Shown here in pieces: positions 19,922 to 40,823 of a stretch of DNA of 64,000 nucleotides. Under the pieces are notes generated by a model that was not told the origin of the DNA, did no database searches, and worked only from the letters and a program-made list of their open reading frames with translations. The DNA is from Escherichia phage N2. The first letter of the stretch is position 1, and each line of letters starts with the position of its first letter. A program made the position numbers and the translations under genes. Location: the sequence record ON645936.1. One strand, written 5' to 3'.

Positions 19922-20641
19922 TTAGGATTCTTCTAAATGTCTTTTCTGAAAAGTTGATACCATACTACGATACGGTTCATTTGGATATCCGTGTTTTATA
20001 GCTTCCTTTGTAAATTTTCTCCATCCATATTTAGTTTCTTTCCAAAGCTCGAATAATTCATCTTCATACTGCCATATAGTTAAATGAGAACGCTTTGCAG
20101 CTTTAATTCCATTAATATGCTTTTCTTTTACTGCAGGATTGCTTAGTTTCTTTTTAATAATATTACTAACTTTTCTAACAAAAACTGGGTCCTTATATCG
20201 TTGCGAAGTTTTTATTGAAGTGTTTAATTTAGCTTCCGGCGTGGATGTAACCTCTTTCATCTTTTTCTTCATATGCTGTATATGATTAGGATTTTTCCAT
20301 AAATTTATAGAATGCTTTTTGCATTTTATCCTAGTTTCATCTGCAACCTTTCCTCCTTCACCCCCGTATGACAGGTTAACACAGTTTTTTCCATATTTCA
20401 ATTTACCTGCCATGATATATAATATTTCAGCTTGTACCATTTTATCATAATTATCAAAAACTTCTAAAACCGTTTTTGATAATATGTGGTCATTTGACAC
20501 TTTTACACGTTCTATATAATTTCCACTACCAACATACGAATCATTGATGTTATTAGTTATATGTCGACCATAATAGTATTTCTTAATACCTGTCTTTAAA
20601 TTTAATATTTCAGTTTTATAGATAGTAAAATATTTTTTCAT
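19922..20641 (-). CDS. GIY-YIG homing endonuclease (Seg-like)
   Basis: 239 aa; YFTIYKTEIL...YYGRH...YVGSG GIY-YIG-like N-terminus and basic C-terminus; 4-nt overlap with the upstream ATPase. Confidence 0.6.
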   Translation of the reverse strand: MKKYFTIYKTEILNLKTGIKKYYYGRHITNNINDSYVGSGNYIERVKVSNDHILSKTVLEVFDNYDKMVQAEILYIMAGKLKYGKNCVNLSYGGEGGKVADETRIKCKKHSINLWKNPNHIQHMKKKMKEVTSTPEAKLNTSIKTSQRYKDPVFVRKVSNIIKKKLSNPAVKEKHINGIKAAKRSHLTIWQYEDELFELWKETKYGWRKFTKEAIKHGYPNEPYRSMVSTFQKRHLEES

Positions 20642-21618
20642 TTTAATAATACCGTTTCAGCAATTTCTTCCCAATGATTTTTGTCGGTCATAATAAAGTC
20701 AGCAAGATAAAGAGCAGTACGCAGTGAAACATTGCGTAAACGATTAACATTGACTTTCATCCATGATAATGCTTTATAAGTTTCTTCATCAGAAAGACCG
20801 CGCTTTTGCATCATGTCGGTTGAAAGAATAACATCTTCAACCCTGACCATAATTTCTTCATTAGTGTGAACACCCAAATCCAAATAAACTGAGCGGGACA
20901 CTAATGCCTGTAAATGTGGAGCAAGTTTAGTACCACGGTCTAATTCGCGGTCAATGTCAACGTTTGTGATAAAAACAATCGTTCCTTTAAATTCAAACTC
21001 ACGCTCAATGCCTTTTTCTTCTAAGTAAGAAGATGCAGTGCTCCAGCAGACTTTACGGGTTTCTCCGGTGTCCAGAGCGGCTTTTAGAAGATTAAGAATG
21101 TCCATATCAGAGAAAACATCCACATCATCAATCAAAAGGACAGAATTCTCTTCACGATTATTCCAAAGCTGTTCATAAAGACCAATACCAGAGATTTTAC
21201 CATTAATGCTTTTATATTCAATGTATCCAATATCATTTGCTTTATTTAAAGCTTTATCTAAAGAATACGTTTTACCAATACCTGCTGCGCCAGAGATAAT
21301 TAATGAACGAATATTTCCATTAATAATACCGTTCGTCATCATTCCCATAACATTAAATCTTTTATTAATGCGGGTTTTCATATCTTCATATGATTCTTTA
21401 ACTTCTTCAACTTTTACACCATCATATGAAATATCTGATTTGTAAACCCAAACACCGCGACGTTTACCGTCAATTTCAACAAAAACTTTACCATCTCCTT
21501 GTGCATCTACCGGAGCATTATCTGGGAACCATTCGCCTAAGAGCTCAAAAGTTCCAGAGATTTCTTTACCAAAGTAGATACCCTTATTGATAGTTACAGT
21601 TTTCATTTTATTCTCCAA
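20638..21618 (-). CDS. AAA+/P-loop ATPase
   Basis: 326 aa; Walker A GAAGIGKT, Walker B VLLIDDVD, sensor-like TIVFITN. Confidence 0.6.
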   Translation of the reverse strand: MENKMKTVTINKGIYFGKEISGTFELLGEWFPDNAPVDAQGDGKVFVEIDGKRRGVWVYKSDISYDGVKVEEVKESYEDMKTRINKRFNVMGMMTNGIINGNIRSLIISGAAGIGKTYSLDKALNKANDIGYIEYKSINGKISGIGLYEQLWNNREENSVLLIDDVDVFSDMDILNLLKAALDTGETRKVCWSTASSYLEEKGIEREFEFKGTIVFITNVDIDRELDRGTKLAPHLQALVSRSVYLDLGVHTNEEIMVRVEDVILSTDMMQKRGLSDEETYKALSWMKVNVNRLRNVSLRTALYLADFIMTDKNHWEEIAETVLLK

Positions 21619-21642
21619 ATCTGTATCAGTAGTTGATAGTTG

Positions 21643-21673
21643 TATAGTACCATAAAGCTTTATGCTTGTAAAC
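21643..21673 (-). promoter_or_regulatory. T4-type early promoter
   Basis: GTTTAC-N18-TACTATA on minus strand, upstream of ATPase gene. Confidence 0.5.
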
Positions 21674-21702
21674 TGTTTTGTGAAAAAATTTTTGAAATAA
21701 AA

Positions 21703-21724
21703 AGGGGACCTTTAGGGCCCCTTT
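21703..21724 (-). terminator. GC stem-loop followed by U-tract
   Basis: GGGG...CCCC hairpin then T-run on minus strand after the 21733 gene. Confidence 0.4.
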
Positions 21725-21732
21725 GTGTTGAT

Positions 21733-22218
21733 TTATTCCATTTCTACTATATGCATGTTCTTTTTGCTATCAAAATATATGTTTTTAACTATTAACTCAG
21801 AATTAATTGGCAGTAAAAACTCTCTTTCATAATCTACCATACAAAGATTATCATAAAGCTTGTTAAGCTTATCATCGTCAGTTTGGCCAGATTCTTCAAT
21901 TGCGATTAAATTTTCTAAAATGTCAATCATGGCAGTCGAATAGTCGAAAACGTTTGCATTTTTTAACACTACTAAAACATTAGTCATATAGCGTTCTGCC
22001 GCAAACGTTTCAGCTATATGAGACTCACTGCTAAAGGAAGTTATTCTTTTAAATTTGATTCTCCTATTAACTTCAAACTTATAAGATAGCACTTCCTCTA
22101 TTGTAAGTCCTCTAAAAAGTATGTCTTTAATCTCAAGTTTGTCTTTAATGTAATCATTAACACGCTTATGATTAAAATCATTAATTTTGTTGCCAAGGCA
22201 TTGCATTAAAATATGCAT
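21733..22218 (-). CDS. candidate ADP-ribosyltransferase (R-S-E class)
   Basis: 161 aa; ordered motifs F-R-G (res ~35), S-F-S-S (~61), E-R-E-F-L-L-P (~131) match the ART signature aromatic-R / S-T-S / ExE-hydrophobic-LLP. Confidence 0.45.
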   Translation of the reverse strand: MHILMQCLGNKINDFNHKRVNDYIKDKLEIKDILFRGLTIEEVLSYKFEVNRRIKFKRITSFSSESHIAETFAAERYMTNVLVVLKNANVFDYSTAMIDILENLIAIEESGQTDDDKLNKLYDNLCMVDYEREFLLPINSELIVKNIYFDSKKNMHIVEME

Positions 22219-22264
22219 TGTATTCTCCTCAATTTTTAAAGAGCAATTAATTAACTACACATAT

Positions 22265-22294
22265 ATTATAATATGCTTTGTGATAGAAGTAAAC
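22265..22294 (-). promoter_or_regulatory. T4-type early promoter (GTTTAC-N18-TATAAT)
   Basis: canonical -35/-10 on minus strand upstream of 21733-22218. Confidence 0.55.
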
Positions 22295-22323: not shown

Positions 22324-22341
22324 AGGGAGCCCGAAGGCTCC
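22324..22341 (-). terminator. rho-independent terminator (GGGAGCC-UUCG-GGCUCCC + U-tract)
   Basis: 7-bp GC stem, UUCG loop, followed by Ts on minus strand; directly after the 22345 stop. Confidence 0.6.
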
Positions 22342-22344
22342 CTA

Positions 22345-23358
22345 TCATTTATAATAACTTCGGTAGTTTTCAAGATAAACCCTCTCAAGGAAGTCATCCC
22401 AAAAACCCATGTCTACTTTTTGCTGCATACCGTTCTTAGAAGCTTCAATGGATGCTGCTTCTACTTGATCGACCACATCTTCCAAAAACTCTTGAACAGT
22501 TTTAAATGGGTGTTTACCCAGCTTCACGTCGAGAATAAATGGAGCGTCTTGAAGTGGATAAACCAAGTCACCAGTTTTGTAAATTTCCAATAGTTGGAGT
22601 CCACCACGACAAGCATGACTTAGAGCTTTCCAGTCAATGCCCTCATTCGCTTCAGCCTTACGAGCACGTTCGCCATATTCAGCATCAAGTTTATTCAAAG
22701 ACTGCTTAAGCTCAATAAGAGAAAGTGTTGTCTGATATTTACGACCCAACACGGTATAGAACATTTGCGGGCCTGTTTTCTCATGGTTATGGAATACCCA
22801 TTCACAGAACTCGTTTTCAGGGAGTCTGTGTTTGATATCTTCTACCTTAGTACGACGAAGTCTATCAGGGATTCCTTCTTGATAGTCGACCCACTGGTCA
22901 GGGATTTGATTAACTACTTTCAATACATCACGTAATGCGGCCAAACGAGAACCCTTGACACCGTATTTAGAAGCTTGCTTGCGGACATATCCTAAATAGG
23001 ATTTCATGTTAGTTGTATAAAACCGTGAACGATTGTCTTGGATAAATTTCCATACATCAGGCAAATCAGATTTAACCACTAGTTCAGGCGGAGTGTGAAG
23101 CATATCCAATGCTACAGTTTCACCATCTGCTGCTAATTTAAAGAAATACTTAAGACTGTACAGTTCATGGTCAATATCATCTTTGGTGTTTTTAGATGAT
23201 GTGTTGTTAGTGTTTTTACTCATATGCTCTTTAACATTTCCGATAAGAATATCGCGAGCAGGAGGAACAAAGATTTCTTTAAAATCTACATCAGATTCTG
23301 GAGTAGAAGTTCCATAAAGATGACTACCAAAATAGCTTTTCATTACTGTTTTCATCAT
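22345..23358 (-). CDS. Pol-beta superfamily nucleotidyltransferase (Cid1/PAP/OAS/CD-NTase-like motif)
   Basis: 337 aa; N-terminal FGSHLYGTSTPESDVDF fits hG[GS]-x10-DhD; downstream LDMLH could supply the third acidic residue. Confidence 0.55.
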   Translation of the reverse strand: MMKTVMKSYFGSHLYGTSTPESDVDFKEIFVPPARDILIGNVKEHMSKNTNNTSSKNTKDDIDHELYSLKYFFKLAADGETVALDMLHTPPELVVKSDLPDVWKFIQDNRSRFYTTNMKSYLGYVRKQASKYGVKGSRLAALRDVLKVVNQIPDQWVDYQEGIPDRLRRTKVEDIKHRLPENEFCEWVFHNHEKTGPQMFYTVLGRKYQTTLSLIELKQSLNKLDAEYGERARKAEANEGIDWKALSHACRGGLQLLEIYKTGDLVYPLQDAPFILDVKLGKHPFKTVQEFLEDVVDQVEAASIEASKNGMQQKVDMGFWDDFLERVYLENYRSYYK

Positions 23359-27639: not shown

Positions 27640-27827
27640 TATTCTTCTACATGCTGTTTACGTTTATTTTTATCTATAAAAGTATATTCAACATATTCAC
27701 CGATATACCATTTATCAGTGTTGTGTTGACTTTTTATAGGACATTTGGTTACTCGAGTTTCGGTCCAGCGTCGAATAATTTCCGCTTTGTTTTTAGGGTC
27801 AAACGGATGCGGGTAATGTGCTTTCAT
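27615..27827 (-). CDS. hypothetical protein
   Basis: 70-aa ORF. Confidence 0.4.
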   Translation of the reverse strand: MKAHYPHPFDPKNKAEIIRRWTETRVTKCPIKSQHNTDKWYIGEYVEYTFIDKNKRKQHVEEYCLKVQWL

Positions 27828-28278
27828 AATCCACCACTATTAAATCAATATCAGGAGTAAACATGTCGATTAATTTAGAAACCTTATCCCAATCGCCGCC
27901 AGCAATACCACAACCTATGCGTGGAATATAAATTACTGGTTTAAACAAAAGGGTCTCTGCCTGTAGATTTAATTCTATCATGCAGTTTACTAAAGCACCA
28001 TAATCAAGATTAGGACCTGGTTCGTATTGCGTATACAGGTTATAGCATATACCAAATCCTGTAGGATTATGTTTAAAAACAATAGACATATCGCCTAATT
28101 TATCACGAGAACCGTACTCAGTAGTGGTTTTATCTATTTCTAAAATTTTAGGATAGGCCCTTGCTAATTGACCTGCTACACCTGAACCCATAGTATGAAA
28201 ACAATTGCACCCGTGCGCAATAATATTACCTTGAAGAAATAGGGCGACAATATCGCCCTTGATATATTTTACAATCAT
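27799..28278 (-). CDS. macro-domain protein (ADP-ribose binding / hydrolase fold)
   Basis: 159 aa; GDIVAL, NIIAHGCNC, MGSGVAGQL and IPRIGCGIAGGDW match macro-domain signature regions. Confidence 0.65.
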   Translation of the reverse strand: MIVKYIKGDIVALFLQGNIIAHGCNCFHTMGSGVAGQLARAYPKILEIDKTTTEYGSRDKLGDMSIVFKHNPTGFGICYNLYTQYEPGPNLDYGALVNCMIELNLQAETLLFKPVIYIPRIGCGIAGGDWDKVSKLIDMFTPDIDLIVVDYESTLPASV

Positions 28279-40257: not shown

Positions 40258-40482
40258 TTATTCACCTTTAGAAATTTTATCCATAACAATAGCGATTAAA
40301 CCAATTAAAAATGCTACTACAAGTGAAAACACATTTTCTGCTGTAGTCAATAATCCGCATATAAATCCAACAAACATTGAAAAACTAAATGCAGAAGCAG
40401 AAATTGCAATAGCAACATTTCGAATTAATTCACAGCGTTTCATTTTTATTCTCCTCAGTAGTTGATAGGGTAATAATATCAC
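40258..40482 (-). CDS. hypothetical small membrane protein
   Basis: 74 aa with two hydrophobic segments; downstream of promoter 40473-40502. Confidence 0.45.
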   Translation of the reverse strand: MILLPYQLLRRIKMKRCELIRNVAIAISASAFSFSMFVGFICGLLTTAENVFSLVVAFLIGLIAIVMDKISKGE

Positions 40483-40502
40483 TACCCCATCTAAAAGTAA
40501 AC
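40473..40502 (-). promoter_or_regulatory. T4-type early promoter (GTTTAC-N18-TATTAT)
   Basis: minus-strand hexamers with 18-nt spacer. Confidence 0.5.
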
Positions 40503-40514
40503 TGTTTTTATAAA

Positions 40515-40823
40515 CTATTTTATTCCGCGTGATGCAATTGTATTCTGTCGTTTAGCACCAGTTTGTTTAAAGTCATGATTGTCGATTTGATCGGTACGAG
40601 CAACTCCGAATGATGATTTAATCTTAGCTTTAGATCCTTTAGTTATAGAAATAAACATCTCGGAAGCCCCTTTCTTAAAGTCCGAAGCAATTACTTCAAC
40701 ACCGTTCTTAGCAAGTGACTTCAGAATTGCCTCCGCGTACTCATCATCAAGACTCGCTTGAGTATTAATAACGAATGTCTTTGGCGCAGCCGCTTCATTG
40801 ATAAATTCTTTAAATGTTTTCAT
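40515..40823 (-). CDS. internal-protein-like packaged protein (IPI-type) with capsid-targeting sequence
   Basis: 102 aa; N-terminus MKTFKEFINEA (CTS with I-N-E cleavage motif); basic. Confidence 0.6.
   Translation of the reverse strand: MKTFKEFINEAAAPKTFVINTQASLDDEYAEAILKSLAKNGVEVIASDFKKGASEMFISITKGSKAKIKSSFGVARTDQIDNHDFKQTGAKRQNTIASRGIK

What the first reader, a model, noticed from the sequence alone, without database searches (positions are those of the whole stretch)
21733..22218. Candidate ADP-ribosyltransferase with its own early promoter and terminator
The 161-aa protein has, in the right order and spacing, the three R-S-E class ART signatures: F-R-G (~res 35), S-F-S-S (~61) and E-R-E-F-L-L-P (~131), the last resembling the ExE-V-L-L-P ARTT motif of C3/iota-like toxins. 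T4 ARTs (Alt, ModA, ModB) map elsewhere, so an ART in the nrdC-rI block would be an extra host-takeover or anti-defence effector. A macro-domain protein is encoded 5.6 kb away (27799-28278).
Basis: inference. Interest (0 to 1): 0.6.

Follow-up and report, generated by a model that had tools for sequence, protein, structure and literature searches.

The report
Extra ModB-like ADP-ribosyltransferase gene cassette
This is a real but ordinary gene: a short relative of the phage T4 ModA/ModB ADP-ribosyltransferases, carried on a small self-contained promoter-gene-terminator cassette that some T4-like phages (including T2) have and T4 lacks, and that public databases already label as an ADP-ribosylase although nobody has tested what it modifies.

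Summary
Window 21733-22218 (- strand) encodes a 161-aa protein with F35-R36-G37, S61-F-S-S64 and E131-R-E133-F-L-L-P. It has its own Shine-Dalgarno site, a T4-early-type promoter and a terminator.

It is not new. Identical or 93-99% identical genes sit at the same site in about 43 phage records, including T2, HY01, EP01 and ACG-C40. Many are already annotated as ADP-ribosylase. Close homologues carry Pfam PF26816 (Mod_ADP_RT).

It is an additional ART: HY01, EP01 and ACG-C40 also have intact modA and modB. It forms a separate short clade that lacks the ~36 N-terminal residues of ModA/ModB.

T4 has a single terminator/promoter unit where this cassette sits. The cassette is 95-100% identical in DNA between T2 and Moonvirus CF1, while the flanks are only 45-82% identical. 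This indicates recent lateral exchange.

The macro-domain gene is the Tk.4 orthologue and is not linked to the ART. The target is unknown.

The parts
22324..22343 (-). Intrinsic terminator after nrdC.11 (stem-loop of the upstream terminator/promoter unit, PeSL). It is the same stem-loop that T4 has at this site.
   Evidence: 8-bp stem, 6 GC pairs, TTCG loop, T7 tail; identical to the T4 stem-loop
22265..22293 (-). Sigma-70 / T4-early-type promoter TTTACT - 17 nt - TATAAT, preceded by GTTG and an A/T-rich stretch. No MotA-box-like TGCTT was seen by eye.
   Evidence: 10/12 match, best in region; sequence; conserved in T2
22225..22230 (-). Shine-Dalgarno GAGGAG, 6 nt upstream of the ATG
   Evidence: read /
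21733..22218 (-). 161-aa short Mod-family (ModA/ModB-like) ADP-ribosyltransferase. Catalytic R36(-G37), S61-x-S63 and E131-x-E133.
21705..21721 (-). Intrinsic terminator of the ART gene (stem-loop of the downstream PeSL)
   Evidence: aligned with the T4 and upstream stem-loops
21644..21672 (-). Early-type promoter of the next gene, nrdC.10 (TTTACA-17-TACTAT with TG). It forms the promoter half of the downstream PeSL and is shared with T4.
21636..22291 (-). Approximate extent of the laterally exchanged cassette (promoter + ART + terminator/next promoter). This segment is 95-100% nt identical between T2 and Moonvirus CF1. Its flanks are 45-82% identical.
   Evidence: positions -73 to +582 relative to the ATG, converted to window coordinates; indel relative to T4

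Best explanation
The ORF encodes a soluble, catalytically competent, arginine-specific mono-ADP-ribosyltransferase of the phage Mod (ModA/ModB) family.

Expression (inferred from sequence signals): it is transcribed within the first minutes of infection by unmodified host sigma-70 RNA polymerase from its own T4-early-type promoter, translated from a strong SD site, and terminated at its own hairpin.

Mechanism (inferred from homology and fold): like ModA and ModB, it should bind NAD+ through R36 and the S61-x-S63 strand. It should use E133 (with E131 directing the reaction to arginine) to transfer ADP-ribose onto one or a few host proteins, most plausibly parts of the transcription/translation/RNA-binding machinery, as for its closest relative ModB.

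Genetic status (shown): the gene is an accessory, extra paralogue carried in addition to modA, modB and alt. It sits on a ~650-bp promoter-ORF-terminator module bounded by two terminator/early-promoter units (PeSLs). It has been inserted between nrdC.11 and nrdC.10 and exchanged between T4-like genera by recombination in those units.

The fold, the conserved catalytic residues, family membership, the cassette structure and the lateral transfer are shown here. Enzymatic activity, arginine specificity, early timing and the target class are inferred.
For: Homology:
- PHROG 832 'RNA polymerase ADP-ribosylase', E 1.4e-23.
- BLASTP to T4 ModB: 30% identity over 142 aa, E 4e-15. To ModA: 28%, E 5e-10. 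FRG aligns to YRG/WRG, SFS to SFT/SAS, and YEREFLLP to REQEWMIP/DEQEVMIP.
- ModB R73 (the aligned Arg) is experimentally required for activity (PMC10468400).
- R36, G37, S61, E131 and E133 are invariant in alignments of 19 and 23 family members.
- Close homologues carry Pfam PF26816 Mod_ADP_RT.

Structure:
- AlphaFold2 pLDDT 92.9, pTM 0.85.
- BFVD: ACG-C40 'ADP-ribosylase' TM 0.98, then ModB/ModA relatives.

Selection: dN/dS 0.13-0.16 against T2 and CF1.

Expression signals.

Cassette:
- T4 has 114 bp with a single terminator/promoter unit where this window has 726 bp.
- T2-CF1 DNA identity is 95-100% across the cassette and 45-82% in the flanks.
- Flanking proteins are 67% and 77% identical, against 92.5% for the ART.
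- A 61%-identical relative sits between regA and gene 43 in another T4-like contig.
- The PeSL concept comes from PMC4122927.

Extra copy: intact modA and modB in HY01, EP01, ACG-C40 and T2 MH751506; two Alt-like genes in HY01.
Against: - There are no biochemical or genetic data for this protein. No paper on it was found.
- It lacks the ~36-38 N-terminal residues present in ModA/ModB and all longer relatives. This could alter or abolish substrate binding.
- The copy in phage BW-1 is split by a 1-nt deletion. Fragment-length homologues (65 and 96 aa) occur in other assemblies.
- Only ~43 records carry it, against 523 phage records that match any part of the 801-bp locus query (a loose denominator, since many matches are short pieces). 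It is therefore dispensable.
- The local Pfam-A and NCBIfam copies gave no hit. Even T4 ModA/ModB give none there.
- The promoter and terminators are consensus matches, not measured signals.
- Nothing here indicates the target.
Confidence: 0.75

Rival explanations
1. Counter-defence effector. The same enzyme chemistry is used, but the physiological target is a host anti-phage defence protein (as AcrIF11 ADP-ribosylates Cas8f) rather than the core transcription/translation machinery. This would explain why only some phages keep it.
For: - Patchy distribution: ~43 records carry it, against 523 that match any part of the locus.
- It lies in a hyperplastic accessory region and has its own early promoter.
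- Recent inter-genus transfer at 98% nt identity.
- It forms a distinct clade with its own ARTT-turn sequence (V-D-Y-E-x-E), apart from ModA/ModB.
- There is precedent for phage ARTs acting as anti-defence enzymes (PMC12421852, listed).
Against: There is no direct evidence. No defence-related gene is specifically linked to it. Patchiness and mobility are typical of any T4 accessory gene. The padloc library was not informative for this question and was not run.
Confidence: 0.2
2. RNAylation enzyme. Like ModB, it preferentially uses NAD-capped RNA and attaches RNA chains to host proteins.
For: Among T4 proteins its closest relative is ModB (E 4e-15, against 5e-10 for ModA). Its acidic pI (5.3) is similar to that of ModB. 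ModB RNAylates S1 and L2 (PMC10468400).
Against: In the tree it is not inside the ModB clade but in a separate short clade. It lacks the N-terminal segment of ModB. Nothing in the sequence is known to predict use of NAD-RNA.
Confidence: 0.12
3. Decaying or non-functional passenger. It would be a truncated Mod paralogue that hitch-hikes on a mobile terminator/promoter cassette and no longer has a useful activity.
For: It is N-terminally shorter than all other family members. It is frameshifted in BW-1, and fragment-length copies occur elsewhere. It is absent from most relatives.
Against: All catalytic residues are invariant. dN/dS is 0.13-0.16. The compact fold is predicted with high confidence. 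The same short length is kept in relatives only 52-61% identical (P0003 is 162 aa; the P0002 core is ~158 aa). A strong SD and promoter are retained in T2 and here.
Confidence: 0.08
4. A non-protein target or an NAD+ glycohydrolase. It would ADP-ribosylate DNA or RNA (as do pierisin/Scabin, DarT and CmdT), or simply hydrolyse NAD+.
Against: The best structural and sequence relatives are protein-arginine ARTs carrying the ExE signature. ModA/ModB are protein ARTs (PMC2988021).
Confidence: 0.05

Closest known systems
T4 ModB (NAD--protein ADP-ribosyltransferase, 207 aa; targets S1, EF-Tu, trigger factor; RNAylates S1/L2)
   Same: Significant sequence homology (30% identity, E 4e-15). Same R / S-x-S(T) / E-x-E residues in aligned columns. 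Same predicted fold family. It is an early phage gene, and both proteins are acidic and small.
   Different: It is 46 aa shorter and lacks the first ~38 residues of ModB. It belongs to a different clade. It sits at a different locus (between nrdC.11 and nrdC.10, not the srd-modA-modB-modA.2 block). It is a monocistronic cassette with its own terminator. Its target is unknown.
T4 ModA (RNA polymerase alpha Arg265 ADP-ribosyltransferase, 200 aa)
   Same: Homologous (28% identity, E 5e-10), with the same catalytic motif positions.
   Different: It is more distant than ModB. Nothing indicates that RNA polymerase alpha is the target, so the database label 'RNA polymerase ADP-ribosylase' is a transferred name, not a tested function.
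Orthologues already in databases: T2 T2_097 / YP_010073745, ACG-C40 K4FJU3 'ADP-ribosylase', EP01 'NAD--protein ADP-ribosyltransferase', HY01, UFV-AREG1 'modB_2', Citrobacter phages Moon/CF1, Salmonella phage STML-198
   Same: 92.5-100% amino-acid identity, the same 161-aa length, and the same position between nrdC.11 and nrdC.10.
   Different: None of substance. This window's copy is one more allele. CF1 and STML-198 have additional small ORFs on both sides.
R-S-E class bacterial mono-ART toxins (Tre1, C3bot/C3stau, VIP2, iota/CPILE-a, HopU1, Vis, Certhrax)
   Different: Only 9-17% identity. There is no significant sequence match to any PDB chain. There is no secretion, translocation or immunity partner. 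A helical hairpin (residues 93-131) precedes the ExE strand, and the protein is smaller.
PeSL (promoter-early stem-loop) modular cassettes of T4-like phages (Arbiol 2010, PMC2839356; Comeau 2014, PMC4122927)
   Same: The ORF is bracketed by two similar terminator-stem-loop + early-promoter units. It is a clean indel relative to T4, which has one hybrid unit. The identity breakpoints lie in those units.
   Different: This particular insertion was not found in those papers. Only the abstract and outline of PMC4122927 were read, and PMC2839356 was seen only in the search listing.

Membership tests
Mod family ADP-ribosyltransferases (T4 ModA/ModB; Pfam PF26816 Mod_ADP_RT; PHROG 832) | Significant sequence similarity to family members or the family profile | tested here: met
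   PHROG 832, E 1.4e-23. ModB E 4e-15 and ModA E 5e-10. PF26816 is precomputed on the 93%-identical P0001 and on P0002/P0003. The local Pfam copy lacks this model.
Mod family ADP-ribosyltransferases (T4 ModA/ModB; Pfam PF26816 Mod_ADP_RT; PHROG 832) | R-S-ExE catalytic residues in the aligned positions (ModB R73; STS-like strand; E-x-E) | tested here: met
   R36, G37, S61, E131 and E133 are invariant in A2 (19 sequences) and A3 (23 sequences). ModB R73A is inactive (PMC10468400).
Mod family ADP-ribosyltransferases (T4 ModA/ModB; Pfam PF26816 Mod_ADP_RT; PHROG 832) | ART fold | tested here: met
Mod family ADP-ribosyltransferases (T4 ModA/ModB; Pfam PF26816 Mod_ADP_RT; PHROG 832) | Full-length architecture of ~200-230 aa with the N-terminal ~38-residue segment | tested here: not met
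   The protein is 161 aa, and alignments start at ModB residue 39 and ModA residue 38. An upstream in-frame stop excludes a longer product. This is a subfamily difference, not a catalytic feature.
Mod family ADP-ribosyltransferases (T4 ModA/ModB; Pfam PF26816 Mod_ADP_RT; PHROG 832) | NAD+-dependent ADP-ribosyl transfer to protein arginine; defined target (RNAP alpha R265 for ModA; S1/EF-Tu/TF for ModB) | not testable with these tools
   Needs enzyme assays and mass spectrometry.
Mod family ADP-ribosyltransferases (T4 ModA/ModB; Pfam PF26816 Mod_ADP_RT; PHROG 832) | Early (pre-replicative) expression | tested here: inconclusive
   A consensus early-type promoter (10/12, 17-nt spacer) lies directly upstream, and no MotA box was seen. 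No transcript data were examined.
C3 / iota / VIP2-type R-S-E exotoxins | Detectable sequence membership, plus secretion or binary-toxin context | tested here: not met
   No PDB chain matches by sequence (phmmer none at E<=10; profile best E 0.07, XopAI ExE strand only). The context is a phage early gene. The similarity is limited to the shared fold.
PeSL-bounded modular cassette of T4-like phages | ORF flanked by composite terminator stem-loop + early promoter units, and present or absent between close relatives with breakpoints in those units | tested here: met
   Definition taken from the abstract of PMC4122927.
ART-macrodomain writer/eraser pair | Co-occurrence or operonic linkage of the ART with the macro-domain gene | tested here: not met
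   The macro ORF is the Tk.4 orthologue (57% identity to T4 Tk.4). T4 has Tk.4 but not the ART. The two genes are 5.6 kb apart with many genes between them.

The most novel reading that the evidence does not exclude
The short Mod clade (161-162 aa, with its own V-D-Y-E-x-E ARTT turn and no N-terminal segment) has a substrate different from RNAP alpha and from the ModB targets. One possibility is a host defence or stress-response protein. Under this reading it spreads between T4-like genera as a plug-in early-gene cassette because it widens host range. This would make it a fourth functional class of T-even ART, present in the classical phage T2.
Probability: 0.25. Interest if true: 0.55.

Novelty: already known. 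Interest (0 to 1): 0.25.

Why it matters
T-even phage ARTs (Alt, ModA, ModB) are textbook host-takeover enzymes, and ModB recently revealed protein RNAylation. A further, uncharacterised paralogue is present in T2 and about 40 other sequenced phages. It is a cheap and well-defined experimental target of 161 aa with clear catalytic residues to mutate, and natural presence/absence and frameshift variants already exist. The locus is also a very clean example of how T4-like phages swap single early genes between genera through terminator/promoter units. As a genome-scan finding, however, it adds nothing that annotation pipelines do not already report.

Tried and rejected
1. The idea that the extra ART compensates for a broken modB. 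T2 RefSeq/LC348380 and AP018813 have a 2-bp deletion that splits modB. But HY01, EP01, ACG-C40 and an independent T2 record (MH751506) carry the ART together with intact modA and modB. Rejected.

2. A functional link to the macro-domain gene. Rejected, because that gene is T4 Tk.4's orthologue and T4 lacks the ART.

3. A second hidden Mod-like gene in the window. A weak tblastn hit of ModB at 40276-40542 (E 0.021) lies in the frame of a small hydrophobic ORF and is noise.

4. Searches that returned nothing:
- Local Pfam-A and NCBIfam gave no hit, even for T4 ModA/ModB.
- The PDB sequence searches found no solved Mod-family structure.
- IMG/VR returned only Moon, CF1 and STML-198.
- Literature searches for this gene, for nrdC.10/nrdC.11, T2_097 and PF26816 found no study of it.
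- Tiemann 2004 (PMC523198) is not held.

5. The T2-CF1 comparison gives dN/dS of about 2, but on only 10 substitutions. That is too few to claim positive selection.

Full report
**What is at the coordinates**

The window is from a Tequatrovirus (T4/T2-like coliphage). A 20-kb stretch around the finding is 96-97% identical to phages HY01, PEC04, SH-2 and others, with no exact match in the collection. At 21733..22218 on the - strand there is a single 161-aa ORF with an ATG start.

The ATG is preceded by GAGGAG (22225-22230) at a 6-nt spacing. An in-frame TAG lies 13 codons upstream with no alternative start in between. The short length is therefore real and not a mis-called start.

**Expression signals and cassette structure**

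The consensus scan finds the following on the - strand:
- TTTACT-17-TATAAT at 22293-22265. At 10/12 it is the best promoter match in the region.
- A strong terminator at 22343-22324 (8-bp stem, TTCG loop, T7).
- A second terminator at 21721-21705.
- The promoter of the next gene (TTTACA-17-TACTAT with TG) at 21672-21644.

Three terminator-like sites were found, against 0.5 expected from shuffles.

The neighbours are nrdC.11 upstream (22345-23358; RlaP-type nucleotidyltransferase, Pfam E 3e-11) and nrdC.10 downstream (20638-21618; AAA/STAND-like NTPase).

In T4 these two genes are separated by 114 bp holding one terminator followed by one early promoter. Here and in T2 the spacer is ~726 bp. 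The three-way alignment shows a clean indel:
- T4's terminator is the one upstream of the ART gene.
- T4's promoter is the one downstream of it.
- The insert supplies one more promoter, the ORF and one more terminator.

This is the architecture described as PeSL (promoter-early stem-loop) cassettes in T4-like phages (PMC4122927; PMC2839356, listed). No transcript data were examined.

**What the protein is**

- PHROG 832 'RNA polymerase ADP-ribosylase' matches over residues 2-153 with E 1.4e-23.
- BLASTP gives 30% identity to T4 ModB (E 4e-15) and 28% to T4 ModA (E 5e-10). F-R-G falls on Y/W-R-G, S-F-S on S-F-T/S-A-S, and Y-E-R-E-F-L-L-P on R-E-Q-E-W-M-I-P/D-E-Q-E-V-M-I-P.
- An exhaustive HMMER search of 1.84 billion representatives finds only 15 clusters at E<=1e-3, each aligning to the query at 28-34% identity apart from its own cluster and a fragment, with lengths and alignment positions matching those of the Mod-family proteins of T4-like phages found; that library itself holds no names or genomic context.
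- A profile search adds 24 proteins, every one carrying precomputed Pfam PF26816, whose name is Mod_ADP_RT.
- In alignments of 19 and 23 members, R36, G37, S61, E131 and E133 are invariant.
- ModB R73, the residue aligned with R36, is required for both ADP-ribosylation and RNAylation (PMC10468400).

- Vis, C3stau2, Certhrax, XopAI, ExoS, SpvB and others

Foldseek against viral models gives the ACG-C40 orthologue (TM 0.98), then ModB/ModA relatives. No Mod-family structure is solved, and no PDB chain matches by sequence.

**How it differs from ModA/ModB**

The protein lacks the first ~36-38 residues that ModA, ModB and every longer relative possess. In a neighbour-joining tree it groups with P0001-P0003 (161-162 aa; the 181-aa P0002 looks like an over-extended start call) and with P0005-P0009 (175-189 aa). 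This 'short' clade is separate from the ModB-like and ModA-like proteins. The residues just before ExE (V-D-Y) are conserved within the close subgroup and differ from ModA/ModB. This is the ARTT region that governs substrate choice in C3-like enzymes (my knowledge, not tested). dN/dS against T2 and CF1 is 0.13-0.16, which indicates purifying selection, although only 23-27 substitutions are involved.

**Distribution, and whether it is 'extra'**

tblastn finds 43 phage records with >=90% identity. EP01 is 100% identical. Others include HY01, W143, UFV-AREG1, ACG-C40 and T2 (94%), plus Citrobacter phages CF1/Moon (Moonvirus) and Salmonella phage STML-198 (Gelderlandvirus), both at 92.5%. By comparison, 523 records match some part of the 801-bp locus query, many of them only by short pieces, but only 37 span it. 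T4 lacks the gene.

Many records already call it 'ADP-ribosylase', 'RNA polymerase ADP-ribosylase', 'modA_1', 'modB_2' or 'NAD--protein ADP-ribosyltransferase'. The identification is therefore already public. The name 'RNA polymerase ADP-ribosylase' is a transferred label, not a tested function.

HY01, EP01 and ACG-C40 also have full-length modA and modB at the canonical locus. HY01 has two Alt-like genes as well.

**Mobility**

Between T2 and Moonvirus CF1, DNA identity is 95-100% from about -73 (the promoter) to about +582 (through the terminator and into the next promoter). It falls to 45-82% on both sides. The flanking proteins nrdC.11 and nrdC.10 are 67% and 77% identical between this window and CF1, against 92.5% for the ART. 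The cassette has therefore moved between genera recently, with endpoints in the PeSL units.

A 52%-identical relative also lies downstream of an RlaP/nrdC.11 gene. A 61%-identical one lies between regA and the DNA polymerase gene in another T4-like contig. The module can thus occupy different hyperplastic sites.

It is also dispensable. BW-1 has a 1-nt deletion that splits the gene, and 65-aa and 96-aa fragments appear in other assemblies.

**The macro-domain gene**

ORF 27799-28278 (-) is a genuine macro domain (Pfam E 5.8e-8). It is the orthologue of T4 Tk.4 (57% identity, E 9e-70) in the conserved tk-vs block. T4 has Tk.4 without the ART, so the proximity carries no information.

**A side idea that was tested and dropped**

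T2 RefSeq shows modB split by a 2-bp deletion. This suggested that the extra ART might substitute for ModB. The lesion is present in two Japanese T2 records (LC348380/NC_054931 and AP018813) but not in MH751506. All other ART-positive phages checked have intact modB. There is no such correlation.

**Most likely mechanism**

The protein is most likely an early-expressed, cytoplasmic, arginine-specific mono-ADP-ribosyltransferase. It would use NAD+ (possibly also NAD-capped RNA) to modify one or a few host proteins. The ExE signature and the nearest relatives point to arginine as the acceptor and to transcription/translation or RNA-binding proteins as the default target class.

Shown here:
- family membership
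- the ART fold
- conserved catalytic residues
- purifying selection
- the expression-signal consensus
- the cassette structure and lateral transfer
- coexistence with modA and modB

Inferred:
- enzymatic activity
- acceptor residue
- expression timing
- target

The main alternative, a counter-defence ART with a host-strain-specific target, fits the patchy and mobile distribution but has no direct support.

**Verdict**

The observation and the interpretation are both correct, but the gene is an already annotated member of a known family. It is of modest interest as an uncharacterised fourth or fifth ART of T2-type phages and as a tidy PeSL cassette. No publication on it was found in the searchable library.

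Noticed in passing
window 19922-20641 (- strand): A 239-aa ORF matches PHROG 314 'homing endonuclease' (E 1.4e-30; N-terminus looks GIY-YIG-like by eye; no Pfam hit). It lies immediately downstream of nrdC.10 and overlaps its stop by 4 nt. In T4 and T2, nrdC.10 is followed by an intergenic gap and then nrdC.9. It is probably a free-standing seg/mob-type homing endonuclease insertion.
   Followed up: partly
L004:2145-2780 (T2 NC_054931.1 11151-11772); L019 (AP018813.1); L018 (MH751506.1): modB of two T2 genome records carries a 2-bp deletion relative to T4. It splits the gene into 142-aa and 42-aa ORFs and removes the ExE motif from the first product. A third T2 record has an intact 624-nt modB. 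This is a stock-specific lesion or an assembly error.
   Followed up: yes
L015:732-1216 (phage BW-1, OR125554.1): The orthologue of the ART gene is split into 96-aa and 65-aa ORFs by a 1-nt deletion around nucleotide 255 of the gene. Similar 96-aa and 65-aa fragments (P0035, P0036, P0004) exist in other assemblies. This could be natural pseudogenisation or a sequencing error; the sequence context was not inspected.
   Followed up: partly
L017:1-3969 (HY01 NC_027349.1 118814-122968): HY01 carries two tandem 'Alt-like RNA polymerase ADP-ribosyltransferase' genes. With modA, modB and the nrdC-block gene, that makes five ART-family genes in one phage.
   Followed up: no
window 27799-28278 (- strand): The macro-domain protein (Tk.4 orthologue) is only 57% identical to T4 Tk.4. 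This is lower than the 67-77% seen for the two flanking nrdC proteins compared across genera with Moonvirus CF1, and this 20-kb region is at best 96-97% identical in DNA to its closest phage records, which are other Tequatroviruses rather than T4. A divergent allele or an allele replacement at this locus is possible. The function of Tk.4 is itself uncharacterised, to my knowledge.
   Followed up: partly
window 20638-21618 and 22345-23358 (- strand): The conserved genes flanking the cassette are an AAA/STAND-like NTPase (nrdC.10; weak Pfam AAA_14/nSTAND3 hits below the cut-offs) and an RlaP-family nucleotidyltransferase ('RNA repair pathway DNA polymerase beta family', nrdC.11). Both are conserved across Tequatrovirus, Moonvirus and Gelderlandvirus, and both are of unknown role.
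   Followed up: no
L010:5001-5546 (Logan ERR12726568 contig, 101 kb): A 61%-identical short Mod ART sits between regA and DNA polymerase gene 43 in an uncultured T4-like phage, a different hyperplastic site. Its called 181-aa product probably starts too far upstream, since M-H-I-L-M begins at residue 25.
   Followed up: partly
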